A stretch of 64,000 bases of DNA, from NCBI GenBank assembly GCA_037143195.1, contig JBAWZD010000002.1, positions 72,785-136,784 of the forward strand, written 5' to 3'. Below the pieces are notes generated by a model that was given only the letters and a program-made list of their open reading frames with translations, did no database searches and was not told the origin of the DNA. Every line of letters starts with the position of its first letter. Positions within the stretch are counted from its first letter, which is position 1. This stretch comes from a bacterium (GTDB lineage Bacteria > Patescibacteriota > Minisyncoccia > Phycocordibacterales > UBA9973). Below are positions 1,789 to 45,289 of this stretch, piece by piece. The position numbers and the translations under genes were made by a program.

Positions 1789-1835
1789 TCCTTTTTGGTT
1801 AGGTGCTTTTGTGTGGCATACTACAAATACTCACT

Positions 1836-14418: not shown

Positions 14419-16170
14419 ATGCAAATTAACCCTGAGCAACTCAAAAGATTTATTGTTGAAAGTGGACTTGTGTCGACGACAGATATTGCTGCTGCTGAAA
14501 AAACAATCGCAGGTAAGGGAGAAAAAATAGGGCAAGCACTTGTTGCTGCAGGCAAATTGAAAGCCGCAGATTTGAAACGTATCGAAGCATACGTGATTGG
14601 AATTCCGTTTGTGTTTCTTGGGAATGAAAAAATTGAACCAGAAGTGCTCGCATTGATCCCAGAACCAATCGCGCGCACAAACAACGTCGTTGCGTTCAAG
14701 CGAAATGACGATCGATTGCAAGTCGCAATGCTTGATGTGGACGATCTTCCAACGATTGATTTCGTCAAGAAGAAGACTGGCCTCAAAATCGTGCCATGTT
14801 TGACTGATGAAGCTTCGATCAAGTCTGCGCTTCAACAATACAAGAAAAGTCTCAAAGCTGAATTCGATGCAATCATTGCCAAGGAATCAGTGTCTGCAAA
14901 AACGATTGCTGAAGGATCAGTTGCCGACGCGAGTGAAAAGGAATTGAAGGCGCTCGCGGAAGATTTGCCAATCGTGAAGATTGCCGATACGCTCATCGCG
15001 CATGCTATTAGTCAAAATGCATCCGACATTCACATTGAACCAGGGGAGGAGTCACTCGTCGTTCGCTATCGTATCGATGGAATTTTGCACGATGCGATGA
15101 CGCTTCCAAAAGATGTTGCTCCAGGATTGACTGCACGTATCAAAGTGCTTTCTGGATTGAAACTCGACGAGAAACGCTTGCCACAAGATGGACGTTTCAA
15201 AATGGAGAGTGACGGAGAAAAAGTTTCGTTTCGTGTCTCCACACTTCCAACCTACTACGGAGAAAAGACGGTACTTCGTTTGCTTCGCGAAACTTCTCAC
15301 GGATATACGCTTGAGAATTTGGGATTTCATGGTGATGCGCTCGAACGTATTCATACGGCAATGAAACAGCGTGCGGGAATGATTCTTGCAGCGGGACCAA
15401 CGGGAAGTGGAAAGACCACGACGCTGTACACTATGCTCGATATTCTCAATACGACGGATGTAAACATTTCAACCGTTGAAGACCCGATCGAATATCAGGT
15501 GCCACGCATCAACCAAACACAGGTGAAGCCAGAGATTGGACTTACGTTCGCGAACGGTCTCCGTACGTTGCTTCGTCAGGATCCTGACATCATCATGGTG
15601 GGAGAAATTCGTGACGGAGAGACGGCTGGGCTTGCGGTCAACGCGTCTCTCACGGGTCACTTGGTGCTCTCAACGATTCACACCAATAGTGCCGCAGGAG
15701 CGATTCCGCGCATGATTGATATGGGAATCGAGCCGTTCCTAATCGTCTCGACAGTAAAGACAGTAATGGCACAACGTCTTGTTCGCCGACTCACGCATGC
15801 CCGTGAAAAATATGTGCTAAACGATGCTGAGCTTGCTGCGTTGGGCAAACTCATTGATCTTGATGCGATGCTTGCACTTTTGAAGAAAGAAAAAATTATT
15901 GACCCAGCGATTACATGGCAACAAATCCCGTTTTATCGCCCGAAGAAAAGTGAAGAATCAGAAGATGGATACAAGGGGCGTGTCGGTATTCATGAAGTGC
16001 TCACAGTGTCTCAAACGATTCGTGAATTGATTTTGAAGGGAGCATCTCAAGATGTGATCAATGATCAGGCGCGCAAAGAGGGGATGATGACAATGCTCGA
16101 AGATGGAATCTTTCTTGCTGTGCAGGGACTCACAACGACTGAAGAAGTGCTCCGTGTTATCTCTGAATAA
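14419..16170 (+). CDS. pilB: type IV pilus assembly ATPase PilB / GspE family
   Basis: Walker A GPTGSGKTTT, and the GspE_N plus ATPase core are present. Confidence 0.9.
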   Translation: MQINPEQLKRFIVESGLVSTTDIAAAEKTIAGKGEKIGQALVAAGKLKAADLKRIEAYVIGIPFVFLGNEKIEPEVLALIPEPIARTNNVVAFKRNDDRLQVAMLDVDDLPTIDFVKKKTGLKIVPCLTDEASIKSALQQYKKSLKAEFDAIIAKESVSAKTIAEGSVADASEKELKALAEDLPIVKIADTLIAHAISQNASDIHIEPGEESLVVRYRIDGILHDAMTLPKDVAPGLTARIKVLSGLKLDEKRLPQDGRFKMESDGEKVSFRVSTLPTYYGEKTVLRLLRETSHGYTLENLGFHGDALERIHTAMKQRAGMILAAGPTGSGKTTTLYTMLDILNTTDVNISTVEDPIEYQVPRINQTQVKPEIGLTFANGLRTLLRQDPDIIMVGEIRDGETAGLAVNASLTGHLVLSTIHTNSAAGAIPRMIDMGIEPFLIVSTVKTVMAQRLVRRLTHAREKYVLNDAELAALGKLIDLDAMLALLKKEKIIDPAITWQQIPFYRPKKSEESEDGYKGRVGIHEVLTVSQTIRELILKGASQDVINDQARKEGMMTMLEDGIFLAVQGLTTTEEVLRVISE

Positions 16171-16181
16171 TTTTTACCACA

Positions 16182-17399
16182 ATGCTATTTGCTTATACAG
16201 CGCGAGATGCGCAAGGAGAAACAATCGAAGGTACGCTTGAAGCGGCCGATCGTTTTACTGTTGCAAAAGAACTCCGCGAACGAGCACAAACTCCGATCAC
16301 TGTTCGTGAAATTGTACCCAGAAACAGAGTTGCGCTTGGATTGTCTCGCATATTCGCGCACGTGAGTTTGCATGAAAAAATTGTGTTCATGCACAATCTT
16401 TCTGGAATGCTCTCGGCTGGGTTGCCGCTTTTTCGAGCACTCGAGGTTGAGAAGAAACAAAACAAGAATGCGATGCTTGTTACTATTTTTGATGGATTGC
16501 TCGCAACTATTAACCAAGGAGGTACTTTGTCAGAAGGACTTGCGAAATTTGTGGATGTATTTCCACCACTTGTAGTATCGATGGTTCGTGCCGGTGAAGA
16601 ATCAGGAAACCTCGCCGGTACGCTCAAGGAAATCGGAGATAACCTCGAAAAAAGTTATAAGTTGAACCGCAAGGTAAAAGGTGCGTTGATGTACCCGACG
16701 ATTGTTATCTCCGCTATCTTTATTATCGGAGCATTGATGCTTGTGTTTGTTGTACCGACTCTCACGAAAATTTTTAAAGACTTTGGAACGAAATTGCCAG
16801 CGTCAACACAGTTTGTGATTACGATTTCTGATGGAGTTTCTGCTCATCCGATCTTCTTCCTTGATTGTGTCATTGTTGTGTTTGCGGCATTTTTCTACTT
16901 TTTCAATTCAAAGCAGATGCAACGAACAAATGATCGTATGGCTCTTTCGTTCCCGGCGATTAAAAGTATCACTCAGGAAATAAACACTGCTCGTACCGCA
17001 CGAACACTTTCGTCACTCTTGTCTGCTGGAGTCGAAATGACACGTGCACTTTCAATCACCAAAGATGTCGTGCAAAATTCGTATTACAAAGATGTGCTTG
17101 AGCGCGCAAGTATTGCACTTCAAAAAGGAGAAACACTTTCGTCTGTATTCAAAGGGGCGCCTGATTTGTATCCAGTGATGGTAGGAGAGATGGTCGCCGT
17201 TGGAGAAGAAACTGGTGCGTTGACCTCAATGCTTGCAGACATCGCGACGTACTATGAAGAAGAAGTTGACGCGCAAACCAAAAATCTTTCGACCATCGTT
17301 GAACCAATTCTGATGATCTTTATTGGAGCAGCGGTTGGATTCTTTGCGGTATCAATGATTTCACCAATGTATGGTCTCGTGAGTACGCTTTCATCATAA
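16182..17399 (+). CDS. pilC: type IV pilus platform protein PilC / GspF family
   Basis: 405-aa polytopic membrane protein with the typical tandem GspF repeats. Confidence 0.85.
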   Translation: MLFAYTARDAQGETIEGTLEAADRFTVAKELRERAQTPITVREIVPRNRVALGLSRIFAHVSLHEKIVFMHNLSGMLSAGLPLFRALEVEKKQNKNAMLVTIFDGLLATINQGGTLSEGLAKFVDVFPPLVVSMVRAGEESGNLAGTLKEIGDNLEKSYKLNRKVKGALMYPTIVISAIFIIGALMLVFVVPTLTKIFKDFGTKLPASTQFVITISDGVSAHPIFFLDCVIVVFAAFFYFFNSKQMQRTNDRMALSFPAIKSITQEINTARTARTLSSLLSAGVEMTRALSITKDVVQNSYYKDVLERASIALQKGETLSSVFKGAPDLYPVMVGEMVAVGEETGALTSMLADIATYYEEEVDAQTKNLSTIVEPILMIFIGAAVGFFAVSMISPMYGLVSTLSS

Positions 17400-24472: not shown

Positions 24473-25231
24473 ATGAAAGAAAACACGATTACGATATTTA
24501 CAGACGGATCTTCGCGTGGCAATCCAGGGCCTGGGGGGTGGGGTGCAGTGGTGATTGATGTTTCCGGCAAAGTCTACGAACTTGGTGGCAGGGAAGATCA
24601 TACGACGAACAACCGCATGGAGATTGCGGCGGCGCTTGGTGCGCTCGCGCACATTGAATCGCGCAAACTCGCGGGAGATATTGAGGTCAATACTGACTCG
24701 GCATATTTGCTCCAAGGGATTACGGGTTGGGTGTACGGCTGGGAGAAAAATGGATGGAAGACGAAGACGGGTGACGACGTGCTCAATCAGGATTTGTGGC
24801 GAGAATTGGGCGCGCTCGTTGCGCGACTCAAAATGAAGCATACGCTCATGTGGAACAAAGTCGGCGGGCACATCGGACTCCTCGGCAACGAGCGCGCCGA
24901 TCTCATCGCGACCAACTGTGCTGACAAGACACAACAGCTCCTCTATGTTGGTCCGCTCACTCAATATGAACAGCTCATCGGTGGCTCGGTATTTTCTGGC
25001 ACAAGCGATGACAAAATCGTGCAAAAAAAAGCCAAGAAAAAATCAAGTTCGACCGCACCAGCGTATTCATATGTCTCACTTCTTGATGGTAAGATAGAAA
25101 CACACAAGACGTGGGCAGAATGCGAACGACGAGTCAAAGGTAAAAAGGCAACGAAATTTAAAAAAGTGTTCAGCAAGCAGGAGGAAGATTCTTTGAAATA
25201 CGAATGGAGCACACTCGCTCACAAACCATAG
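24473..25231 (+). CDS. rnhA: ribonuclease HI with Lys-rich C-terminal extension
   Basis: TDGSSRGNPGPGGWGAVV...NNRMEIAAALGAL...TDSAYL. The extra ~90-aa C-terminal tail is basic. Confidence 0.8.
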   Translation: MKENTITIFTDGSSRGNPGPGGWGAVVIDVSGKVYELGGREDHTTNNRMEIAAALGALAHIESRKLAGDIEVNTDSAYLLQGITGWVYGWEKNGWKTKTGDDVLNQDLWRELGALVARLKMKHTLMWNKVGGHIGLLGNERADLIATNCADKTQQLLYVGPLTQYEQLIGGSVFSGTSDDKIVQKKAKKKSSSTAPAYSYVSLLDGKIETHKTWAECERRVKGKKATKFKKVFSKQEEDSLKYEWSTLAHKP

Positions 25232-26697
25232 ATGGATATCTGGCTTCCGGTATTGTAGGCTTTGCCACCGGAATTATTTTTGCTTCGCTTGCTCATATGA
25301 CCGCCCCCGCGACTATAGTCGCGGGGGCGGTCGGCGTTTGTCTCCTCGTCCTCGCCACAATCATTCGCAAAGCGAGATCCTACACACTGGTCGCGGGTCT
25401 CTTCATCTGCGCATTTGTCCTCGGCATGTATCGTGCCGAAATTGCAAAACCGAATACGAAAGATTTTGAAAACAACATCGGCGAGAGCGTCACTGTCGAA
25501 GGTCTGATCGCAGATGAACCATCAGTAAAATCATATGGAGCAGGTTTTACCCTCGCGACGCCTGACCTCAGTTTTTCAGTTCGTACCAAAAAGAATACGC
25601 ATCTCGCATACGGTGACAAAGTCCTCGTGTATGGCACACTCGCACTCCCTGAGAATTTCATGACTGATCAAGGCACGGAATTCGATTACATTTCATATCT
25701 CTACAAAAGTAATGTTGTGTATCAAATCAAAAACGCGAACGCGACCGTACTCGAACACAATCATGGCAATTGGATAGTCGCACACTTGATCCCCGTAAAG
25801 AACGCAATCGTAAACTGTTTCCATCGCATCTTGCCCGCGTCACAAGCCGATCTGCTCGCCGGTCTCAATCTCGGCGTCAAAGCAAACATTGATCCGCAAT
25901 TCCGCGACGACCTCGTCACGACTGGCACGATTCATATGATTGCGCTTTCTGGATACAACGTGACCGTCGTTGCAAACGCACTCCAAAGTTTTTTTATCGA
26001 TATTCTCGGACTATCCATGCGTGTCGCGTCAGCAAGTGGCGCACTGTGTATCGTGCTGTTTGTCGTCATGACAGGGATGCAATCATCGGCGGTGCGAGCG
26101 GGGATCATGGCGCTCATCGGACTTTTTGCGCGCACCAAAGGTCGCACCTATGATGCATTTCGTGCGCTTGTCATCGCCGGATTTTTGATGATACTCTACG
26201 ATCCAAAATATCTGGTTTACGATGTGTCGTTTCAACTTTCATACCTCGCTACGCTCGGTATTCTGTTCGTCACCCCAGTGCTCGAGCGAACATTCGCACG
26301 CGTGCCCAAAAAAGTCGCGTACATTATTCTGCTCCGCGAACTCATGTCCGTCACCCTTGGCGCACAGACAGGAGTCTTGCCCTTCATTCTTTACAAAATG
26401 GGCACACTCTCGCTCATTGCACTCCCCGCAAATGTCGCGATATTACCCGCGGTCCCGCTTGCCATGGGATTCGGCGCGCTCGCGGGACTCATCGGCGCAT
26501 TCAGTCTCGGACTCGCATACCCCGCCTCACTTATCACACACTATCTCCTCAGCTATATCACCGGAGCCGTGCAATTCCTCGCGCGCGTCCCGTTCGCGTC
26601 AGTCGTCATAAAACACTTTCCATTATGGCTGTGTATCTGTATGTATTTGTGTCTAATGTTTTTTTTGTATAAAAAATGGCACAGTGAAAAAGTGTAG
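25204..26697 (+). CDS. comEC: DNA internalization channel ComEC/Rec2 (membrane competence domain only, no fused MBL domain)
   Basis: DUF4131-like N-terminal region (FDYISYLYKSNVVYQI) and a competence domain (GTIHMIALSGYNVTVV). Multiple TM helices are present. The 5' end overlaps rnhA, so the true start may be an internal Met. Confidence 0.75.
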   Translation: MEHTRSQTIDGYLASGIVGFATGIIFASLAHMTAPATIVAGAVGVCLLVLATIIRKARSYTLVAGLFICAFVLGMYRAEIAKPNTKDFENNIGESVTVEGLIADEPSVKSYGAGFTLATPDLSFSVRTKKNTHLAYGDKVLVYGTLALPENFMTDQGTEFDYISYLYKSNVVYQIKNANATVLEHNHGNWIVAHLIPVKNAIVNCFHRILPASQADLLAGLNLGVKANIDPQFRDDLVTTGTIHMIALSGYNVTVVANALQSFFIDILGLSMRVASASGALCIVLFVVMTGMQSSAVRAGIMALIGLFARTKGRTYDAFRALVIAGFLMILYDPKYLVYDVSFQLSYLATLGILFVTPVLERTFARVPKKVAYIILLRELMSVTLGAQTGVLPFILYKMGTLSLIALPANVAILPAVPLAMGFGALAGLIGAFSLGLAYPASLITHYLLSYITGAVQFLARVPFASVVIKHFPLWLCICMYLCLMFFLYKKWHSEKV

Positions 26698-33874: not shown

Positions 33875-34011
33875 ATCACACTTCATTTTTAAAAAATCCC
33901 CCATCGGGGGATTTTTTATTTGCAAAAACGCTCGCGATTCTGTATAGTTTCCGAACAAATGGGACTCGGTGTCTCTTTTTTTATTAGAATTGATTATATA
34001 TAAGTAATTAC

Positions 34012-36177
34012 ATGGAACGCGATTATCCTCTCAATAAGGTTCGAAACTTCGGTATCATTGCCCACATTGATGCCGGCAAGACCACGACATCTGAGCGTGT
34101 GCTCTTTTATACGGGTGTCTCCCATAAGATCGGAGAAGTGCACGAAGGTGAAGCTGTGATGGACTGGATGGAGCAGGAGCGTGAGCGTGGAATCACGATT
34201 ACGGCTGCTGCGACAACATGTTTTTGGACACCGACCTACGTCCCCGACGTCAAAGACTTGAGCAAGAAGTTCCGCTTCAACCTCATCGATACTCCTGGAC
34301 ACATCGACTTCACTGTGGAAGTGAAGCGTTCTCTCCGTGTGCTTGACGGTGCAGTCGTCGTCTTCGACGGTGTTGCCGGAGTTGAGCCACAGTCAGAGAC
34401 CAACTGGCGCTACGCCGACGAGGCCAATGTTCCTCGTATCTGTTTCATCAACAAGCTCGACCGAACAGGTGCAAACTTTGAGAAATCATTCGCATCTATC
34501 ATCGACCGTCTCAGTAAGAAAGCTGTTCGTCTCCACCTCCCAATCGGTCTCGAAGAAAAATTCGAAGGTGTTATTGACCTCCTCCAAAACAAAGCAGTTC
34601 GCTTTGAAGGAGACAAGGGTGAAAAGGTCGTTGTTTCAGACAACATTCCAGAAGATATGAAGGCCGATGTTGCAAAATATCGTGCAGAACTCATCGAAGC
34701 AATCGTTGCAAACGACGATGCAATGATGACTGCATATCTCGATGGTAAAGAGCCATCACTTGCTGACCTCAAAAAGGTGCTCCGCAAGGCTGTTATCGCA
34801 AACGACATCTTCCCAGTGCTCGCTGGAACGGCACTCAAGAACAAGGGTGTTCAGCTCGTGCTCGACGCAGTTGTCGACTACCTCCCATCACCATCTGACA
34901 TGCCACCAATGCATGCAATCAACCCTGACACCGAAGAGGATGTTGTCATCACGGCAAACGACAATGAGCCACTCTCAGCGCTTGCCTTCAAAGTTGCGTC
35001 TGACCCATTCGTTGGACAGCTCATCTTCTTCCGCGTGTACTCAGGAACGCTTTCTGCTGGATCATATGTCTACAACCCACGCACTCGCAACAAAGAGCGC
35101 GTTGGCCGTATCGTTCGTATGCACGCAAACGAACGTGAAGAAGTGAAGAAAGTATTCGCTGGAGAAATCGCAGCGGCAGTTGGACTCAAAGAGGCGATCA
35201 CCTCTGATACACTCTGTGAGCCAGAGCACCCAATCGCCCTTGACCGTATCGTCTTCCCAGAGCCTGTTATCTCGATGCGTATCGAGCCAAAGACAAAGGC
35301 TGACCAAGAAAAAATGGGTATGGCACTCAACCGTCTCGGTCAAGAAGATCCAACATTCCGCGTTTCAACAGATCAGGAAACAGGTGAGACAATAATCGCC
35401 GGAATGGGAGAACTTCACCTCGAAATCATCGTTGACCGTCTCAAGCGCGAATTCACTGTTGAAGTGAACGTTGGTAAGCCTCAGGTTGCGTACCGCGAAA
35501 CAATTTCGTCTGAATCAGAGGCTGAAGGTAAGTACATCAAGCAGACGGGAGGTCGTGGAAACTACGGTCACGTCAAGATCAAGATGAAGCCAATGGTCAA
35601 AATGACCAAGGAAGAAATCGAAGACCTTCCACGCAACACCAAGCGCGAAGAACACTTCGAATTCATCAACACAATCAAGGGAGGAGCTATTCCATTGGAA
35701 TACATCCCAGCCTGTGAAAAAGGATTCAAAGAAGGTCTCGATCGTGGAGTTGTTGCCGGATTCAAAATGGAAGATATTTCTGTTGAACTCTGGGATGGTT
35801 CGTACCACGATGTGGACTCAAACGAAATGGCCTTCAAGATTGCAGCCTCAATGGCAGTACAAGAAGCTGCGAAGCGTGCAAACCCTGTTATCCTTGAGCC
35901 AATGATGAGTGTTGAAGTGGTGACTCCAGACAAATTCATGGGAGACGTCACTGGATCGCTCTCAGCAAAACGTGGAATCATCGAAGGTATGGAGCAGCGT
36001 GGACTCAACCAAGCCGTCAAAGCTGTGGTGCCACTCTCTGAAATGTTCGGTTACATGACGAACCTTCGCTCAATGACAGAAGGTCGCGCAGGATTCACAA
36101 TGGAATTCCTCCGCTACGACATCGTTCCGAAGAACGTTGCTGATGAAATCGTCAAGGCTCGTTCAGCGACAGCGTAA
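34012..36177 (+). CDS. fusA: elongation factor G
   Basis: AHIDAGKTTT G-domain and EF-G domains II-V. Confidence 0.95.
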   Translation: MERDYPLNKVRNFGIIAHIDAGKTTTSERVLFYTGVSHKIGEVHEGEAVMDWMEQERERGITITAAATTCFWTPTYVPDVKDLSKKFRFNLIDTPGHIDFTVEVKRSLRVLDGAVVVFDGVAGVEPQSETNWRYADEANVPRICFINKLDRTGANFEKSFASIIDRLSKKAVRLHLPIGLEEKFEGVIDLLQNKAVRFEGDKGEKVVVSDNIPEDMKADVAKYRAELIEAIVANDDAMMTAYLDGKEPSLADLKKVLRKAVIANDIFPVLAGTALKNKGVQLVLDAVVDYLPSPSDMPPMHAINPDTEEDVVITANDNEPLSALAFKVASDPFVGQLIFFRVYSGTLSAGSYVYNPRTRNKERVGRIVRMHANEREEVKKVFAGEIAAAVGLKEAITSDTLCEPEHPIALDRIVFPEPVISMRIEPKTKADQEKMGMALNRLGQEDPTFRVSTDQETGETIIAGMGELHLEIIVDRLKREFTVEVNVGKPQVAYRETISSESEAEGKYIKQTGGRGNYGHVKIKMKPMVKMTKEEIEDLPRNTKREEHFEFINTIKGGAIPLEYIPACEKGFKEGLDRGVVAGFKMEDISVELWDGSYHDVDSNEMAFKIAASMAVQEAAKRANPVILEPMMSVEVVTPDKFMGDVTGSLSAKRGIIEGMEQRGLNQAVKAVVPLSEMFGYMTNLRSMTEGRAGFTMEFLRYDIVPKNVADEIVKARSATA

Positions 36178-36204
36178 GGTAAGACGACAAACGAATGAAA
36201 GAAG

Positions 36205-36240
36205 CAAAAGGCGCGCCCTTCGGGCGCGCCTTTTGTATAC
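36205..36240. terminator. bidirectional GC-hairpin terminator (copy 1 of identical pair)
   Basis: CAAAAGGCGCGCCCTTCGGGCGCGCCTTTTGTAT lies after fusA. Confidence 0.6.
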
Positions 36241-36388
36241 CGAAATGTGCCAATGATGCGTAGCCATATTTTGGTCAGTTTCTTTTTTTGTGTAGTAGTA
36301 TACAATTAAATGAGATTGATTAATTTAGGTTTATGCTAAGAATGAAAAAAATAATTTTAAACAAATATATCTGGGGGCACTATTTTTA

Positions 36389-37210
36389 GTGTGTTTTTGT
36401 CCTGTTACGTTGTTCGCGCAAGTATTATTTGGTGGTGATACTGGTTTTCGTGTCATATTATCCAATCTTACAACTACATCAGTAACAGTAACTATTCCCC
36501 CAGTTACAGGAAAAGTAGAGAAGGACGCGGTGTTTCATTTAAGAGATGCAACTGATAATAAAAATTGGGTCGGTGGGGATACATGGGCAGACCCAGTCGG
36601 TGGTTTCGATTTCGTTCCCTGCTGTACTGTAAAAATTGCGAACGGAACGATAACAAAAACGTTCACCTTGAAGCCCCAACATATTTATAACATTGATGCG
36701 ATGGTAAATTTTGAAAGCGATTTTCAGGACACCGATGCGATAGAATTTAATACAGGCTGCCCAGACTTGCCGGCCGGTCAACAGCGAGTCTCAGGTTCAT
36801 CATGTGACGACCCGAAACTTTCACCACCGGGAACAGTAAAGTCCTCTGGCTCGTCTGGATCTAACGATACAGGAAGTAACTCAACCTCAGGAGGTACTCA
36901 AAATGGAAATACGCTCGATGTAAAAGCATCAGGATTAAATCTCAAATTGAGTCTTGATAATCCAGTTGGTGATATCAAAACGATACCGGATTTTGTTGAG
37001 AAATGCCTAACCGCGGTGATGCTCCTGCTTTCGCCAATTATTGTGATAATGATACTTTATTCTGGATTCCTTTTTGTTACAGCACAGGGAAACTCAGAAA
37101 AGTTACAGACCGCAAAAAGTACGATTTTATACGCACTCATTGGCGCCGCTATCATTATTGGAGCGAAAGGATTTTCAACGGTAGTCGCGTCATTTTTTAG
37201 TCATTCGTAA
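36389..37210 (+). CDS. secreted protein with C-terminal double-TM segment (TrbC/VirB2 pilin-like tail), unknown function
   Basis: N-terminal hydrophobic signal. The C-terminus AVMLLLSPIIVIMILYSGFLFVTAQG...ILYALIGAAIIIGAKGF has two TM helices. The gene is bracketed by identical hairpins at about 36205-36240 and about 37223-37258. Confidence 0.5.
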   Translation: MCFCPVTLFAQVLFGGDTGFRVILSNLTTTSVTVTIPPVTGKVEKDAVFHLRDATDNKNWVGGDTWADPVGGFDFVPCCTVKIANGTITKTFTLKPQHIYNIDAMVNFESDFQDTDAIEFNTGCPDLPAGQQRVSGSSCDDPKLSPPGTVKSSGSSGSNDTGSNSTSGGTQNGNTLDVKASGLNLKLSLDNPVGDIKTIPDFVEKCLTAVMLLLSPIIVIMILYSGFLFVTAQGNSEKLQTAKSTILYALIGAAIIIGAKGFSTVVASFFSHS

Positions 37211-37222
37211 ACGAGAGAATAT

Positions 37223-37258
37223 ATATTTAGCAAAAGGCGCGCCCGAAGGGCGCGCCTT
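37223..37258. terminator. bidirectional GC-hairpin terminator (copy 2, loop inverted relative to copy 1)
   Basis: CAAAAGGCGCGCCCGAAGGGCGCGCCTTTTGTAT. The stem is identical to that of the hairpin at 36205-36240 and the loop is its reverse complement. Confidence 0.6.
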
Positions 37259-37364
37259 TTGTATTTCTCAACAATTCCTTTGCATAAACTTGATACCCAT
37301 TTTGGTAGTCTTTCTATAGCAAATTGTTCGTTGACAGCACTATAGCAATATTGATATATTTACT

Positions 37365-37670
37365 ATGTACCAGAATAAAGTATTAAGAAACGTTTCTGAA
37401 TTTATAAATAATCTTTCAAACAAAGAGCAAGGAAAAGTTCGACTTGCGCTCGATGCGCTACTGTATGGGCACTTTCAATCAGTCCATACTAAAATGCTCC
37501 GCTTTCCGATTCGTGAGTTGATAGTACTAAATTATCGTATTTTATTTTTCATCGAATCTGACGAAATATATTTTGTTTCTGCATTTACAAAAAAGACAGC
37601 CAAAACGCCGCTTCAGGAAATCGAAAATGCATTGCGAATCTATCACTATCTAAAAAACATATGGAAATAA
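37365..37670 (+). CDS. type II toxin, HigB/RelE-superfamily (Gp49-like)
   Basis: IRELIVLNYRILFFIESDEIYFVSAFTKKTAKTPLQEIENA matches the Gp49/HigB signature. It overlaps the downstream HTH gene by 10 nt. Confidence 0.6.
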   Translation: MYQNKVLRNVSEFINNLSNKEQGKVRLALDALLYGHFQSVHTKMLRFPIRELIVLNYRILFFIESDEIYFVSAFTKKTAKTPLQEIENALRIYHYLKNIWK

Positions 37671-37951
37671 TTAACGGGTTGGAATTTTATACAATGGACG
37701 AAGTCTTCAAAAAGGCTTCAAAATCAAAGGCTTTTATCAAGTCCTATAACGAGGAAGCCATGCGCTTAAATCTCGTCGTGGAGATCAAGCGCGTTCGCAA
37801 AGAGAAGAGGATGACCCAGCTCGCAGTAGCAAAGAAAGCCAAAATGCCACAGTCTGTCATCGCTCGCATCGAGAGTGGTCAACACAGCATTTCGCTCGCC
37901 ACACTCAACCGCATTGCTCACGCCCTCGGCAAACGCGTTCAGCTTGTGTAA
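37661..37951 (+). CDS. XRE-family HTH antitoxin (HigA-like)
   Basis: MTQLAVAKKAKMPQSVIARIESGQHSISLATLNRIAHALG is an HTH_3 domain. Confidence 0.65.
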   Translation: MEIINGLEFYTMDEVFKKASKSKAFIKSYNEEAMRLNLVVEIKRVRKEKRMTQLAVAKKAKMPQSVIARIESGQHSISLATLNRIAHALGKRVQLV

Positions 37952-38465
37952 TTCGAGCAAGTGTCGTCTCCTTAAACTCGACGCCGTAGTTTTTTGTGTT
38001 ACTCGTGTGATTTTAGCCTTATTTTGCTAGGTTATAGGATGTTGCGTTGTATAATTGTAAACAAGGTTCACTCATTTGTAAGTATTTCCCGAGAGCAACA
38101 CTGATAATGGGTTGTTTATCGGGGTATATTTATAAGTAACAGGGTCGAACCCCAGCCCTAACAATCATTCTATGATGAATTATTGTCAGTGTGCACAAAA
38201 GTGTGTAGCGTACATAACTCGCAGGAATGGGCAACGTGATTATGCTTATAAGCATGGTTATAAATGTTGGCCTGTACTTGATAAGAGGTCGTGTTCGGTA
38301 CATAACAAAAAACGATAATAGTTATTAATAACTATTATCGCGAAATGAAAAAGTCTCCTCTCTTTGTCCCGATGGGGACTTTTTCTTTTTTACCTCTACA
38401 TGAGAGAGTATAACCTATTATTTTTATTCTCGCTGTGGAAAAATAAAATAAAGGACATTTTTCAG

Positions 38466-38495
38466 TTGACATAGCCCCTAAATCTGCTAATATCA
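38466..38495 (+). promoter_or_regulatory. sigma70-like promoter upstream of tuf (TTGACA-16/17-TAATAT)
   Basis: Near-consensus -35 and -10 hexamers with 16-17 nt spacing lie about 230 nt upstream of the tuf ATG. Confidence 0.4.
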
Positions 38496-38724
38496 ACCTC
38501 GATAGCTCTCCCCAGGCTATTTTTTCGTGCCTGGGTGCGGACTTTCAGACGGTTAGTGGCTGTGGCAGAGGCAGTTTTGTCTTTTATTTCAAGGCTATTT
38601 TCACGAATAGTTCAAAGGCAAGCTTGGTGCCCCTGCTCTCGCCAGTAACCACCCTCGCGCAGGCTCGCGCATTATTAGTTCTTAATTTTATAAGCTTACT
38701 TTACTAAGTAGCTCAAAAAATCAT

Positions 38725-39924
38725 ATGGCAGAAGAATTCAACCGTTCCAAGCCCCATGTCAACGTAGGAACCATCGGTCACGTTGACCACGGCAAAACTA
38801 CTCTTACAGCAGCGATCCTCACGGTTCTTGCTCGACAGGGAAATGGTTACAGTGCAAAGCTCAAGGGTGTTGGAGATATCGACAAGGCTCCTGAAGAAAA
38901 GGCTCGTGGAATCACGATCGCCCTCTCTCACAACGAGTACGAGACTCCTACTCGCCACTACGCTCACATTGACGCTCCAGGACACGCCGACTACATCAAG
39001 AACATGATTACCGGTGCCGCTCAAATGGACGGAGCAATCATCGTTGTTGCTGCGACTGACGGTGTTATGCCACAGACTCGTGAACACATCCTCCTTGCAA
39101 AACAGGTTGGAGTGCCAAAGATCATCGTGTTCCTCAACAAGTGCGACATGGTTGATGATCCAGATCTCATCGAGCTCGTTGAAGAAGAAGTCCGCGAACT
39201 CCTCACCAAGCAGGGCTTCGACGGCGCAGGATGTCCTGTCATCCGTGGTTCAGGTCTCAAGGCTCTCGAGTCTGCAGACAACAATGATCCATGGGCACAG
39301 AAAGTTCTTGAGCTCGCAAACGCTCTCGATACTTACTTCCCACTTCCAGAACGCGACATCACAAAGCCATTCCTCATGCCGGTTGAAGATATCTTCTCAA
39401 TCGAAGGACGCGGAACTGTTGTTACAGGCCGTATCGAGCGTGGAGTTGTGAAGGTTGGTGAAGAAGTTGAAATCGTTGGAATCAAAGATACACAGAAGAC
39501 AACAGTCACTGGTATCGAAATGTTCAACAAGAACCTCAAAGAAGGTATCGCCGGCGACAACGCTGGAATCCTTCTCCGCGGTCTTAAGAAAGAAGACATT
39601 ACTCGTGGACAGGTGCTCGCAAAGATGGGTACTGTGAAGCCTCACTCTGAATTCGAATGTGAAGTTTACATTTTGAAGAAGGAAGAAGGTGGACGTCACA
39701 CTCCATTCTTTAAGGGATACAAGCCTCAGTTCTACGTTCGTACAACTGACGTGACAGGAGATGTCGTGCTTCCAGAAGGAAAGGAAATGGTTATGCCAGG
39801 AGATACAGTAACCCTCAAGGTTAAGCTCGTTACTCCAGTCGCCATGGAACAGGGAATGCGCTTCGCTATCCGCGAAGGAGGCAAGACTGTCGGTGCCGGA
39901 GTCGTAACCAGTATCATCGCGTAG
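38725..39924 (+). CDS. tuf: elongation factor Tu
   Basis: [18 protein letters not shown] and NKCD motifs. Confidence 0.95.
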
Positions 39925-43051: not shown

Positions 43052-43065
43052 TTTGCATTACACAC

Positions 43066-43095
43066 AAAAACGCGCCCAGACGGGCGCGTTTTTGC
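43066..43095 (+). terminator. rho-independent terminator after rplB
   Basis: AAAAACGCGCCCAGACGGGCGCGTTTTTGC. A second hairpin lies at about 43228-43260. Confidence 0.6.
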
Positions 43096-43357
43096 TTGAC
43101 TTTTTCACCCCAGAGTACTAAATTAAAAATATGTTCGTCCGAAATACAATTATTAGTACCCTCATTATTATCCGCTCGGCGCGGGGGTCTGCTTTTATTG
43201 TATAAATTTCTTGATTCAATAAAACAAAAGCCCCCGCGTACGCGGGGGCTTTTGTTTTATGAGTTTTGAGCCACAGCTCTCGAGAACCCCAAGATTCTTT
43301 AGAGCTGTGGTCCAAAATGAATGACCACGTATTTTCTTCATTAAAAAACCAAAATTT

Positions 43358-43720
43358 ATGACATCAACCATTAGCCAGCTTTCAATAGCTGGAACTCAAT
43401 TCCAAATCATGCACACGATTGCATGTTCATGTCCTTGGCTTAAGCAAATGCTTAAGCGAGAAGAATTTAAATTAAGTACAGAAACGTTCGTCTTAATGAT
43501 GGCAAACGCCCATATGGCAGGATTGCCAAATGAAATTGAGCATGAATACCCTGTCCAATCCTTTTCTGGATGGACCTTTGTTAAAAGGAAGTACAAATCA
43601 GTCTATCTCGTCTCATACAAGAATCATTTGTATGAGTTCACCGGGGCAGGATTTATTTTCGCTGACCCAGACCGTTATTACGGTGCAGGGGCGATAATTC
43701 TTGCTCCAGCAAGAAAGTAA
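43358..43720 (+). CDS. hypothetical protein (inserted between rplB and rpsS)
   Basis: 120-aa ORF with ATG start and no recognisable motifs. Confidence 0.35.
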   Translation: MTSTISQLSIAGTQFQIMHTIACSCPWLKQMLKREEFKLSTETFVLMMANAHMAGLPNEIEHEYPVQSFSGWTFVKRKYKSVYLVSYKNHLYEFTGAGFIFADPDRYYGAGAIILAPARK

Positions 43721-43796
43721 AACGAAGAAAACAAAACTAAGAAAAAAGACGTGAGCGATTATCTGCTTGCGTCTTTTTCTATGGTACACTTTTCGT

Positions 43797-44189
43797 ATGC
43801 AACCAGGGGAACACAAAAAGCCGTTTAGTTTGCGCAAACGTATTCATCATACAAACCACGCACTTCGCGGAGTGGGGATATTTATCAAAGACACACATGC
43901 TGCGTGGCTTCACCTTTTTTTCGCGCTGCTCGCCGTGTATCTCGGATTCTTGCTTCGTATTTCAAATATGGAATGGATCGTTATTCTCCTCACGATGAGT
44001 CTTATTCTTGCTGCTGAAGCTGTGAATACAGCTATCGAAATTGACGTTGACCTCAAGAGCCCAGAATACAATCCCAAAGCACGTGATATCAAAGACATCG
44101 CCGCTGGCGCCGTACTCATCACTGTCTTCCTCGGGGGAATTATTGGAATGATTATTTTTCTTCCAAAAGTATTCGCACTGTTTTATTAA
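43797..44189 (+). CDS. dgkA: prokaryotic diacylglycerol kinase-like membrane protein
   Basis: Three TM helices and AAEAVNTAIE...IKDIAAGAVL, which is DAGK_prokar-like. The internal ATG was chosen. Confidence 0.6.
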   Translation: MQPGEHKKPFSLRKRIHHTNHALRGVGIFIKDTHAAWLHLFFALLAVYLGFLLRISNMEWIVILLTMSLILAAEAVNTAIEIDVDLKSPEYNPKARDIKDIAAGAVLITVFLGGIIGMIIFLPKVFALFY

Positions 44190-44254
44190 AATATGCAAAA
44201 GAAAAAGCGTGCATTGTGAGTACGCTTTTTCAATTTGAATAATTTCGTCGCTCG

Positions 44255-44794
44255 CTATACAACGAGTTTAGCGCGCAATTTGGCGAGCTTCTTGTCAGTA
44301 CAATCACCGCGTAGCTTGATTGTACCAAGCAGATCTGCCGCCTTCATTAGTCCAGGCTCTTTATCCAGACTAATAATTGAGAGTACTCCCTTAAAATCGA
44401 GGCTGGGAAGAGCACTGAGAAAATTTGAACCATTAATCTCAGCTTCTGTTTTGGTTAAAGAAAAAATTATCACCCGAGGCTTTCTTTTTTCTTGCACCTT
44501 CGGCACCACTCCATAGCCGTCAGTGTTAAAAAATGTTCCTCCATCAAAGTGGAGAAACTGTGCATCGATAATCGACGCACAGTTTTCAGCAAGTGGATTT
44601 TTTTTCACTACTGAAATAAGGTAATCAATTTTTTTAAATTCCTTTACATTGATTAGCACATTTGTAAAAACAGGAAACACTTCTGTTTTTAAAAGGCGCT
44701 TCGTAATGACTTTTTCAAGTTTGTCCTCTTTGTGGATGAGAGCATCGGCAAGTTCCCAAAGGAGGAACGCCTCAAGTTGTTGTTGAGTGAACAT
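44255..44794 (-). CDS. hypothetical protein (opposite strand, inside ribosomal operon)
   Basis: 179-aa ORF. It is the only minus-strand gene within the rplB-rpsS gap. Confidence 0.4.
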   Translation of the reverse strand: MFTQQQLEAFLLWELADALIHKEDKLEKVITKRLLKTEVFPVFTNVLINVKEFKKIDYLISVVKKNPLAENCASIIDAQFLHFDGGTFFNTDGYGVVPKVQEKRKPRVIIFSLTKTEAEINGSNFLSALPSLDFKGVLSIISLDKEPGLMKAADLLGTIKLRGDCTDKKLAKLRAKLVV

Positions 44795-44941
44795 TAGATT
44801 TTAAATTTTTGGTTGACGAAACTCAAATACAAAACTACTATTTCGTCAAATAGGGGAATATGGGAGGTAGGGGATTTGACAATCTCCGCGTTTTTGCTAG
44901 TATGTCTGGACACGGCTCCTCGGAGCTATTTTAATTACTGT

Positions 44942-45289
44942 ATGACACGATCACTCAAAAAAGGACCATATGTAGACGAGCGCCTCATGAAAAAGATTGA
45001 GGGTAAAACAGCGCAAGGTTCCGCTGTTATTAAGACATGGGCACGCGCATGTCAGATTGCCCCAGAGATGGTGGGCTTCACTTTTGGTGTTCACAACGGC
45101 AAGGTGCACGTTGAAGTTCTCGTTACTGAAGACATGGTTGGTCACCGTTTGGGTGAATTTTCTCCTACACGTACATTCCGTAAGCACGGAGGTAAGATGC
45201 AGAAGGAACTTGAAACCAAGCAGAAGGAGAGTGACATCGCCGCTGCTCAGGCTGCAAAGGCTTCTACCGCTGATGCCAAGAAGAAGTAA
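44942..45289 (+). CDS. rpsS: 30S ribosomal protein S19
   Basis: [13 protein letters not shown].... The internal ATG was chosen. A Lys/Ala-rich C-terminal tail is present. Confidence 0.85.

What the first reader, a model, noticed from the sequence alone, without database searches (positions are those of the whole stretch)
36205..37951. Gene cassette bounded by two identical GC hairpins in inverted orientation, followed by a HigB-like/HTH toxin-antitoxin pair
The hairpins at about 36205-36240 and about 37223-37258 have identical 14-bp GC stems and identical flanks (AGCAAAAGG...CCTTTTGTAT). They differ only in that the loop is reverse-complemented (TTCG vs GAAG). They are therefore inverted copies bracketing a ~1-kb cassette. 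The single gene in the cassette encodes a secreted protein whose C-terminus resembles TrbC/VirB2-type pilins, with two TM helices. A Gp49/HigB-like toxin and XRE-HTH antitoxin pair follows immediately, overlapping by 10 nt. Such inverted-repeat-bounded cassettes are candidates for site-specific inversion or insertion.
Basis: seen in the sequence. Interest (0 to 1): 0.5.

Follow-up and report, generated by a model that had tools for sequence, protein, structure and literature searches.

The report
Duplicated terminator hairpins flanking a pilin gene
Two near-identical hairpins that most likely act as transcription stop signals bracket an extra pilin-like gene between two translation-factor genes of a tiny uncultured bacterium; a close relative has one hairpin and no such gene, so the hairpins mark where the gene is gained or lost, with no sign of a flipping switch.

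Summary
Two 31-nt perfect palindromes (14-bp stem, 3-nt loop) lie at 36205-36235 and 37231-37261. Their stems are identical and their loops (TTC/GAA) are reverse complements. They follow the stop codons of fusA and of a VirB2-like pilin gene (PF18895). A Gp49/HigB-like toxin and an HTH antitoxin come next, overlapping by 10 nt, and then tuf.

The hairpins have the same form as about ten other gene-end hairpins in the window: A-tract, GC stem, T-tract. I read them as bidirectional intrinsic terminators. A lineage whose pilin is 81% identical keeps both hairpins as direct copies (both loops TTC), with one compensatory base-pair change. So "inverted" is a loop flip specific to the window's lineage.

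A close relative (L019) has fusA, one hairpin, then the toxin-antitoxin pair, and no pilin gene. The alignment breaks exactly inside the hairpin. The 1,026-bp unit (pilin gene plus one hairpin) is therefore a precise insertion/deletion.

I found no inverted orientation, no recombinase, no spread of the hairpin through a related genome and no copy on viral contigs. The fusA-tuf gap is a gene-flux hot spot, with at least eight different contents among relatives. The window's pilin gene is frameshifted in a G5 run.

Verdict: ordinary biology with a neat evolutionary footprint. Interest is low to moderate.

The parts
34012..36177 (+). fusA (elongation factor G), the conserved left anchor of the locus
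   Evidence: 721-aa ORF. It is 92-99% identical to Patescibacteria/Paceibacteria EF-G.
36205..36235 (+). Hairpin 1: palindromic, bidirectional intrinsic-terminator-like stem-loop (14-bp stem, loop TTC), 27 nt after the fusA stop. The direct-repeat copy spans 36203-36238.
   Evidence: -29.4 kcal/mol. It is identical in the related lineage (L002 5866-5896).
36236..36341 (+). Spacer inside the cassette, presumed to carry the pilin gene's own promoter (inferred only). It is strongly diverged between the window and L002.
   Evidence: Sequence comparison. No consensus promoter was called here.
36342..37210 (+). VirB2-like pilin gene (T4SS_pilin, PF18895) with an N-terminal beta-rich domain and a Ser/Gly linker. 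It is frameshifted in the window: ATG at 36342, G5 run at 36373-36377, and the uninterrupted ORF begins at GTG 36389.
   Evidence: The exact protein is NCBI WCG55_02755.
37231..37261 (+). Hairpin 2: same 14-bp arms as hairpin 1, loop GAA, 20 nt after the pilin stop. The direct-repeat copy spans 37229-37264.
   Evidence: The ortholog in L002 (6883-6913) has loop TTC and one compensatory G-C to A-T pair change.
37331..37360 (+). Promoter-like site of the toxin-antitoxin operon (TTGACA-18-TATATT, 11 of 12 matches). The 31-nt block TTGACAGCACTATAGCAATATTGATATATT is identical in the window, L002 and L019.
37365..37670 (+). Gp49/HigB-like (RelE/ParE superfamily) toxin
   Evidence: PF05973, E 3e-10. 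NCBI names it a RelE/ParE family toxin. It is intact in L019 and degraded to a pseudogene in L002.
37661..37951 (+). XRE-type HTH antitoxin, overlapping the toxin by 10 nt
   Evidence: PF01381, E 1.6e-13. It is conserved in L002 and L019.
37952..38465 (.). Non-coding stretch of the island, with a 28-nt AT-rich palindrome (38313-38340) and a terminator-like hairpin (38366-38379). The related lineage has MazEF here instead.
   Evidence: There is no tblastn trace of MazEF. There is no Rfam match above threshold.
38466..38724 (+). tuf promoter (TTGACA-16-TAATAT) and conserved structured leader; the right-hand boundary of the variable island
38725..39924 (+). tuf (elongation factor Tu), the conserved right anchor
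   Evidence: The Pfam labels come from the orthologous loci.

Best explanation
The two hairpins are paralogous copies of one palindromic, bidirectional Rho-independent terminator. Copy 1 ends fusA. Copy 2 ends an accessory VirB2-like pilin gene that sits in a gene-flux hot spot between fusA and tuf of a Patescibacteria (Paceibacteria-like) genome.

Their everyday job is inferred to be transcription termination and insulation. They would stop fusA and pilin transcripts on the + strand and any antisense transcripts on the - strand.

Because they are also 31-36-nt repeats 1,026 nt apart, they are the points at which the unit 'pilin gene plus one hairpin' is lost or gained. Recombination or replication slippage between the two copies leaves exactly one hairpin, as seen in the relative L019. 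Loss in L019 is favoured over gain, but the direction is not settled.

The reverse-complemented loop is a flip-flop micro-inversion, or a gene conversion in inverted register, of a perfect palindrome. It does not change the RNA's stability, and it is not the mark of a programmed invertible element.

Shown here: the repeat, the fold, the gene-end position, the compensatory change, the empty site and the hot spot. Inferred: terminator activity, the mechanism and direction of the indel, and the origin of the loop flip.
For: 1. Form. About ten other gene-end hairpins in the window share the A-tract/GC-core/T-tract perfect-palindrome design. Examples are 29630 CAAAAACCGCCCC..., 33890 after rpsG and 43065 CAAAAACGCGCCC... 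after rplB.

2. Position and stability. The hairpins lie 27 and 20 nt after stop codons. Each folds at -29.4 kcal/mol on the + strand and -27.5 on the - strand.

3. Conservation of structure. In L002-L010 the orthologous hairpin 2 is CAAAAAGCGCGCCC-TTC-GGGCGCGCTTTTTG. That is one G-C to A-T double change that keeps the pair. Its loop is in the same orientation as hairpin 1.

4. Empty site. L019 reads fusA, then AGCAAAAGGCGCGCCC-GGA-GGGCGCGCCTTTTGCT, then the toxin-antitoxin promoter and genes. Its left flank matches that of hairpin 1 and its right flank matches that of hairpin 2. BLAST alignment to the window ends at 36235 and restarts at 37229. Gene lists show the same arrangement in contigs from several samples.

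5. Polarity. Across fusA, L002 and L019 are each other's nearest relatives (95.1% nt, against 93.4% and 92.8% to the window). Two pilin-carrying lineages therefore bracket the lineage that lacks it.

6. Hot spot. The fusA-tuf gap is empty (259-277 nt) in L037-L041 and L043. Elsewhere it holds small ORFs, MazEF, HigB-like genes or the pilin.

7. Rarity. The stem is rare and always single elsewhere. Two copies 1 kb apart are therefore related by descent, not by chance.

8. No mobility signs. No recombinase was found in the window. There is no copy of the hairpin or of the gene on viral contigs.

9. Precedent. Loop flip-flops of gene-end hairpins that leave the folding energy unchanged are documented in plastomes (PMC6824564).
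Against: - Terminator activity is inferred from form and position only. The four T's directly after the GC core are part of the extended stem, and the tail continues GTAT, so the U-tract is short.
- The direction of the indel is not settled. The L019 antitoxin is closer to the window's (86.6%) than to L002's (83.2%) and looks mosaic. The local history is therefore reticulate, and the empty site could be ancestral.
- How the hairpin first became duplicated is unknown.
- Only 64 kb of the window's own genome could be searched for further copies.
- A neighbouring insertion in L002 (a 211-aa gene after the rpsG terminator) has no duplicated hairpin, only a TTTG microhomology. Hairpin duplication is therefore not the general rule in this clade.
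Confidence: 0.7

Rival explanations
1. The hairpin is a recombination site (att- or attC-like, or a hairpin target of a single-strand transposase). The 1-kb pilin cassette is captured and excised by a site-specific enzyme encoded elsewhere in the genome.
For: - The cassette is one ORF plus one hairpin, about 1 kb, bounded by the same hairpin on both sides.
- A precise empty site retaining one hairpin exists.
- Assemblies tend to break at the hairpin: L006 starts inside it, L009 has an N-gap in it, and the Logan contigs L001 and L029 end in it. Population heterogeneity could cause this.
Against: - No integrase, transposase or invertase domain was found in about 45 ORFs of the 64-kb window.
- The hairpin is a perfect palindrome without the bulged bases or the GTTRRRY/RYYYAAC cores of attC sites (read directly from the sequence).
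- Only one copy exists in the whole species-representative genome of the close relative. The full-length pilin protein exists in only two lineages, always at this locus.
- There are no viral-contig copies.
- The assembly breaks are also expected for a 31-nt palindrome whose two copies are the same canonical 31-mer.
Confidence: 0.1
2. The two hairpins are the inverted repeats of a programmed invertible segment, that is, phase variation of the pilin gene by inversion.
For: In the window the two 31-mers are exact reverse complements of each other. The cargo is a surface pilin-like protein, a typical subject of phase variation.
Against: - The flanks are direct.
- The related lineage has direct copies with non-identical stems and a single orientation in all 10 retrieved contigs (24 contigs carry the gene).
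- No invertase was found.
- Terminators on both sides and a spacer upstream of the gene inside the segment mean that inversion would not obviously switch expression.
- The only on/off-like feature is a G5 frameshift.
Confidence: 0.03
3. The hairpins were not duplicated by the insertion. The pilin gene arrived with its own terminator of the same general CPR type. Later gene conversion with the neighbouring fusA terminator made them alike, and identical in the window's lineage.
For: - The A-type stem CAAAAAGCGCGCCC of L002 hairpin 2 is exactly the variant seen as a lone terminator in other CPR genomes (L014, L016, L017, L020).
- The window's rplB terminator has a similar core.
- Stems are identical in the window but not in L002, which shows ongoing homogenisation or divergence.
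Against: The stem family is very rare: 11 loci in 185,579 genomes and 7 loci in 241 million metagenome records. Starting with two independent members side by side is therefore improbable. This rival differs from the best explanation only in how the second copy arose.
Confidence: 0.12

Closest known systems
Bidirectional Rho-independent (intrinsic) terminators
   Same: A GC-rich stem-loop directly after a stop codon. An A-tract lies 5' and a T-tract 3', so that both strands encode a hairpin followed by a U-run. Many hairpins of similar design sit at other gene ends in the same window.
   Different: Two copies with identical arms lie 1 kb apart. The stem is unusually long and perfect (14 bp), with a minimal 3-nt loop. 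Activity was not measured.
Flip-flop small inversions of hairpin loops (described mainly in plastid genomes; PMC6824564)
   Same: The loop is exactly reverse-complemented between copies while the stem and the folding energy stay unchanged. The hairpins sit at gene 3' ends.
   Different: Here the comparison is between two paralogous copies in a bacterial genome, and between orthologs in related lineages, not between plastomes of related species.
Deletion between short direct repeats by replication slippage or recombination, which palindromes stimulate (established bacterial genetics; from my own knowledge)
   Same: The relative retains exactly one repeat copy and lacks everything between the two copies.
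   Different: The event itself was not observed and its direction (loss or gain) is inferred. Recombination between lineages is evident at the locus.
Integron gene cassettes (attC)
   Same: A single ORF of about 1 kb with a hairpin-forming site at its 3' end, and a precise present/absent polymorphism.
   Different: There are no attC core sequences or bulged bases, no intI, no cassette array and no attI. Both sites are perfect palindromes of terminator design.
VirB2-like pilins of Patescibacteria (PF18895/PF04956; PMC12102498)
   Same: A C-terminal two-helix hydrophobic hairpin that matches PF18895 above its cut-off. That survey detected VirB2-like pilins in 1,948 Patescibacteria assemblies and 441 multi-gene pilin arrays in 383 assemblies.
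   Different: This one carries an extra N-terminal domain of about 170 aa found in only two lineages. It is not next to virB4 but between fusA and tuf. It is frameshifted in the window.
HigBA-type (Gp49/RelE-ParE toxin with XRE-HTH antitoxin) type II toxin-antitoxin modules
   Same: The toxin gene comes first, the genes overlap, and the domain pair is PF05973 plus PF01381.
   Different: It is chromosomal, lodged inside the str/S10 translation-gene cluster. The toxin has decayed in one related lineage.

Membership tests
Rho-independent terminator | Stable GC-rich stem-loop | tested here: met
   14-bp perfect stem with 10 G-C pairs. Folding energy -29.4 kcal/mol, z = -5.4 and -7.0.
Rho-independent terminator | U-rich tract immediately 3' of the stem | tested here: inconclusive
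   TTTTGTAT follows the 9-bp GC core, but those four T's can pair with the 5' A-tract. The simple scan called hairpin 1 on the - strand and only a shortened version of hairpin 2 on the + strand.
Rho-independent terminator | Location just downstream of a stop codon, in the sense orientation | tested here: met
   27 nt after the fusA stop and 20 nt after the pilin stop.
Rho-independent terminator | Structure kept by compensatory change in relatives | tested here: met
   One G-C to A-T double change in hairpin 2 of L002-L010. This is a single pair, so the support is modest. The L011 variant has two non-compensated changes.
Rho-independent terminator | Transcripts end there | not testable with these tools
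   No RNA data were available.
Integron cassette / attC | Imperfect palindrome with RYYYAAC...GTTRRRY cores and extrahelical bases | tested here: not met
   The palindrome is perfect. Its boundaries read AGCAAAAGG...CCTTTTGTAT, with no GTTRRRY.
Integron cassette / attC | intI integrase and attI nearby; an array of cassettes | tested here: not met
   There is a single unit. No integrase domain was found in about 45 window ORFs. The rest of the genome was not available.
Invertible DNA switch | Both orientations present in populations | tested here: not met
   All 10 retrieved contigs of the related lineage show one orientation (24 contigs carry the gene). The window's genome has one assembly plus Logan unitigs that cannot tell orientation. 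Reads were not available.
Invertible DNA switch | Adjacent invertase or recombinase | tested here: not met
   None lies between fusA and tuf, and none was detected in the window.
REP/REPIN or IS200/IS605-type palindromic element | Many dispersed copies per genome and an associated Y1 transposase | tested here: not met
   Two copies in 64 kb. One copy in all contigs of the related species-representative genome. At most two copies in any genome scanned. No transposase hit.
T4SS_pilin (PF18895) / VirB2-like pilin | Match to the family model above its curated cut-off | tested here: met
   30.7 bits against 26.6, residues 198-266. The homologs found by search also carry PF18895 or PF04956.
T4SS_pilin (PF18895) / VirB2-like pilin | Signal peptide followed by two hydrophobic helices | tested here: inconclusive
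   Helices 212-244 and 249-282 are modelled with pLDDT 83-91 in the ortholog. The signal peptide is intact in the ortholog but cut off by a frameshift in the window.
T4SS_pilin (PF18895) / VirB2-like pilin | Works with a VirB4-type secretion machine | not testable with these tools
   It is not adjacent to T4SS genes. A TrwB/TraG-like ATPase lies 21 kb away at 58872-61607.
Type II toxin-antitoxin, HigBA-like | RelE/ParE-fold toxin paired with an HTH antitoxin in one small operon, toxin first | tested here: met
   PF05973 (3e-10) and PF01381 (1.6e-13), a 10-nt overlap, and a shared conserved promoter.
Type II toxin-antitoxin, HigBA-like | Toxicity and neutralisation | not testable with these tools
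   This needs an experiment.

The most novel reading that the evidence does not exclude
In Patescibacteria, strong palindromic terminators that punctuate the ribosomal-protein and elongation-factor gene clusters might double as recombination sites. Single-gene cassettes (here a surface pilin) would be captured and shed there, either through hairpin or cruciform DNA intermediates or through an unrecognised enzyme. That would be an integron-like way to vary surface genes at a highly expressed locus.
Probability: 0.07. Interest if true: 0.65.

Novelty: new member of a known kind. Interest (0 to 1): 0.25.

Why it matters
It gives a clean, base-pair-resolved example of how accessory genes enter and leave the otherwise rigid translation-gene cluster of a reduced CPR genome. 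Variable cargo sits immediately after terminator hairpins. In this case a duplicated terminator defines the exact unit of gain or loss.

It also carries a practical warning. A 31-nt palindrome whose two copies are reverse complements collapses to one k-mer in k=31 assembly graphs. Public unitigs break there, and orientation or presence/absence can be mis-assembled.

It does not reveal a new mechanism.

Tried and rejected
- **Rfam.** Nothing in the whole window at gathering thresholds. In the island at E <= 1, only sub-threshold hits of the hairpins to terminator parts of enterobacterial sRNAs.
- **tRNA scan.** No tRNAs, so this is not a tRNA-linked island.
- **Structure of the pilin-like protein.** Only the C-terminal helical hairpin is confident (mean pLDDT 57). 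The N-terminal domain is not modelled. Foldseek against the PDB gave no match with E <= 0.001. A profile search of PDB sequences gave nothing.
- **Exact look-ups.** The window's EF-G is not on record. The pilin and the toxin returned only short Logan unitigs bounded by the hairpins. More of the same genome could therefore not be fetched.
- **Metagenome scans.** The fusA-side flank plus left arm gave 0 hits. The hairpin alone gave 7 unrelated single terminators.
- **Toxin homolog search.** It returned only the toxin's own cluster.
- **Viral contigs.** No hairpin and no pilin relative.
- **Is hairpin duplication general?** I tested it on the extra gene after the rpsG terminator in L002. It is not: only a TTTG microhomology flanks that insertion.
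- **MazEF remnants.** None found in the window's 500-nt non-coding stretch.
- **Chance pairing.** Rejected, given the rarity of the stem. **Programmed inversion.** Rejected, for the reasons given under the rival explanations.
Full report
**What is in the sequence**

The region lies between fusA (34012-36177) and tuf (38725-39924), in a window that also carries rpsL/rpsG upstream and the S10 operon downstream. The EF-G is 92-99% identical to those of Patescibacteria (Paceibacteria/Nomurabacteria-like) MAGs.

Two exact 31-nt palindromes are present: CAAAAGGCGCGCCC-TTC-GGGCGCGCCTTTTG at 36205-36235, and the same arms with loop GAA at 37231-37261. There is no third copy in 64 kb, even with three mismatches, and none is expected by chance.

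The match extends by AG on the left and TAT on the right in direct orientation, giving a 36-nt direct repeat spaced 1,026 nt. Because the arms are a perfect palindrome, only the 3-nt loop distinguishes 'direct' from 'inverted', and the loop is exactly reverse-complemented. Each hairpin folds at -29.4 kcal/mol on the + strand and -27.5 on the - strand.

**The genes**

Between the hairpins there is one gene.
- Its product matches PF18895 (T4SS_pilin) above the curated cut-off.
- Full-length relatives exist in only one other lineage (P0002, 81% identity). All other hits share only the C-terminal 70-100 residues.
- An AlphaFold model of P0002 is confident only for two C-terminal helices, residues 212-282. 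The beta-rich N-terminal domain is unresolved, and structure and sequence searches against the PDB gave nothing.
- VirB2-like pilins of this family are widespread and often multi-copy in Patescibacteria (PMC12102498).
- In the window the gene is frameshifted. ATG 36342 opens MKKIILNKYIWG and then hits a stop. One extra G in the G5 run at 36373-36377 restores a 289-aa protein whose signal peptide aligns with P0002. An independent Logan unitig from SRR12676973 has the same G5 run.

After hairpin 2 come three features: a conserved promoter-like site (37331-37360), a Gp49/HigB-like toxin (37365-37670) and an HTH antitoxin (37661-37951). The two genes overlap by 10 nt.

**The hairpins are of the genome's terminator type**

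A scan for perfect stem-loops finds about ten further gene-end hairpins in the window with the same design: A-tract, GC core, short loop, GC core, T-tract. Examples follow rpsG (33890-33918) and rplB (43065-43094, CAAAAACGCGCCC-AGAC-GGGCGCGTTTTTG). The two hairpins sit 27 and 20 nt after stop codons.

Across 185,579 species-representative genomes, the stem (allowing the R/Y variant) occurs at only 11 loci. Nine of these are in CPR genomes, always as a single copy per locus, between genes, and several follow rplB or rpsG. In 241 million metagenome records it occurs at 7 loci, with varied loops. It is absent from viral contigs.

So the stem is a recurrent but rare terminator sequence. Two copies 1 kb apart cannot be a coincidence.

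**Related genomes**

*The lineage carrying P0002 (L002-L011, ENA GROS21-1 metagenomes).* It has the same order: fusA, hairpin 1, pilin, hairpin 2, a decayed toxin, the antitoxin, an extra MazEF pair, then tuf.
- Hairpin 1 is identical to the window's.
- Hairpin 2 is CAAAAAGCGCGCCC-TTC-GGGCGCGCTTTTTG. That is one compensatory G-C to A-T change, with the loop in the same orientation as hairpin 1. This holds in every contig that covers it.
- All ten retrieved contigs have the gene in the same orientation relative to fusA or the antitoxin.
- The 'inverted' relation is therefore specific to the window's lineage, and it rests on a 3-nt flip.

*L019 (CAITQP010000009.1).* It has fusA, one hairpin (AGCAAAAGGCGCGCCC-GGA-GGGCGCGCCTTTTGCT, a 16-bp stem), then directly the toxin-antitoxin promoter and genes.
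- Its left flank matches that of hairpin 1 and its right flank matches that of hairpin 2.
- BLAST alignment to the window runs to 36235 and resumes at 37229.
- Gene lists for contigs from several samples show the same fusA, 162-nt gap, toxin arrangement.
- The unit 'pilin gene plus one hairpin' is therefore a precise indel whose junction is the hairpin.

**Direction of the indel**

Across fusA, L002 and L019 are nearest relatives (95.1% nt) and the window is the outlier (93.4% and 92.8%). That favours loss in L019 by recombination or slippage between the two hairpins.

The antitoxin tells a different story. L019 is closer to the window there (86.6% against 83.2%) and looks mosaic. The locus therefore recombines between lineages, and the direction is not proven.

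The L019 loop (GGA) is one change from the window's hairpin-2 loop (GAA). Its stem is the hairpin-1 type. This fits a hairpin-1 by hairpin-2 exchange (inference).

**A hot spot, not a special device**

Among genomes with EF-G at least 92% identical, the fusA-tuf gap takes many forms:
- empty, 259-277 nt (L037-L041, L043);
- a small ORF (L042, L024);
- MazEF plus a hypothetical gene (L023);
- a HigB-like toxin after a different terminator (L028);
- the arrangements described above.

In all of them a terminator hairpin follows fusA, and a conserved promoter plus leader precedes tuf.

The window and L002 also diverge completely right after the rplB terminator. In the window a diacylglycerol-kinase island lies at about 43100-44800. 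L002 has an extra gene right after the rpsG terminator, flanked only by a TTTG microhomology and with no duplicated hairpin. So insertion next to terminators is common in this clade, but duplication of the terminator is particular to the pilin unit.

**Tests of the recombination-device readings**

- No integrase, invertase or transposase domain was found in about 45 ORFs of the window.
- The hairpin lacks attC features.
- It is single-copy in the whole genome of the close relative.
- The cassette gene is confined to this locus.
- Assemblies do break at the hairpin. Logan unitigs L001 and L029 start or end in it, L006 starts inside it and L009 has an N-gap in it. This is expected, because the two copies form the same canonical 31-mer and the palindrome is very stable. 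It could also hide strain heterogeneity, which only reads can resolve.

**Conclusion**

The best reading is a duplicated, palindromic, bidirectional terminator flanking an accessory pilin-like gene in a gene-flux hot spot.
- The hairpin pair serves as the substrate for precise loss (or gain) of the gene.
- The loop underwent a flip-flop micro-inversion of the kind documented for gene-end hairpins in plastomes (PMC6824564).
- Site-specific insertion by an unknown enzyme remains possible at low probability.
- Programmed inversion is unlikely.

Novelty is limited to a new, well-resolved instance of known processes in a CPR genome.

Noticed in passing
window 36342-36389 (G5 run 36373-36377): The pilin-like gene is frameshifted inside its signal peptide. 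One extra G restores a 289-aa ORF that aligns with the intact ortholog. The same G5 run is present in an independent Logan unitig. It could be a pseudogene, a slippage-prone tract, or use of the downstream GTG start.
   Followed up: partly
window 38466-38724; also L002 8251-8478, L037 6251-6443, L043, L042, L024, L023: A strong promoter is followed by a conserved leader of about 175-230 nt upstream of tuf. It has invariant blocks (GATAGCTCTCCCCAGG, GGTTAGTGGCYGTGGCAGAGG, AAGCTTGGT, ATTATTAGTT). A long-range helix encloses an apex of variable length. There is no Rfam match. It is a candidate structured 5' UTR or small RNA in this clade.
   Followed up: partly
window 43052-44942: A second low-GC island splits rplB from rpsS. 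It follows the terminator hairpin at 43065-43094 and a second hairpin at 43219-43260. It holds a 120-aa ORF, a diacylglycerol kinase (43767-44189) and a 179-aa ORF on the minus strand. The related lineage (L005) has unrelated sequence right after its rplB terminator. The motif CGCGTTTTTGCT recurs at both island ends (43083 and about 44889).
   Followed up: partly
window 37952-38465: About 500 nt without ORFs between the antitoxin and the tuf promoter. It contains a 28-nt AT-rich perfect palindrome (38313-38340) and a terminator-like hairpin (38366-38379). The only Rfam hit is sub-threshold (ohsC_RNA, E 0.45). The related lineage has MazEF here, but no remnant is detectable in the window.
   Followed up: partly
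L002 7017-7250 and 7578-8173: In the related lineage the HigB-like toxin is a pseudogene, with a stop at codon 9 and a deletion of about 62 nt, while the antitoxin is intact. A MazE/PemK pair has been added downstream.
   Followed up: partly
L019 (minus strand) about 170-460, compared with window 37661-37951 and L002 7251-7541: The L019 antitoxin is mosaic: its N-terminal part resembles the window's and its C-terminal part resembles L002's. This indicates homologous recombination between these lineages right next to the hairpin.
   Followed up: partly
L001, L029, L006 (start), L009 (about 983-992): Public assemblies break at the hairpin. Logan unitigs end in it, one scaffold starts inside it and another has a 10-N gap in it. 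The two window copies are the same canonical 31-mer, which is a trap for k=31 assembly graphs.
   Followed up: partly
L013 and L015 (one Saccharibacteria MAG), L016, L020, L022: The identical 31-mer, including loop TTC or GAA, recurs as a lone terminator in distant CPR lineages, several times right after rplB or rpsG. Among CPR hits in genome representatives the loops are mostly TTC or GAA. This suggests selection for this particular stem-loop, or occasional transfer.
   Followed up: partly
L002 2838-3576, compared with window 33916-33922: The related lineage carries an extra 211-aa gene of unknown function, inserted immediately after the rpsG terminator and flanked by a 4-nt TTTG repeat.
   Followed up: partly
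window 91-3533; 14419-17399; 25204-26697; 58872-61607: Other gene content of the window. Two tandem paralogous proteins of about 570 aa have treble-clef zinc-finger ends. A type IV pilus ATPase and platform protein (PilB/PilC-like) are present. So are ComEC and a TrwB/TraG-like coupling ATPase. The last could belong to the secretion system that the pilin-like protein works with.
   Followed up: no
L037-L041 about 1400-2800: In a related lineage a reverse transcriptase (RVT_1) and a bAvd-like gene sit just upstream of rpsL. This looks like a diversity-generating retroelement.
   Followed up: no
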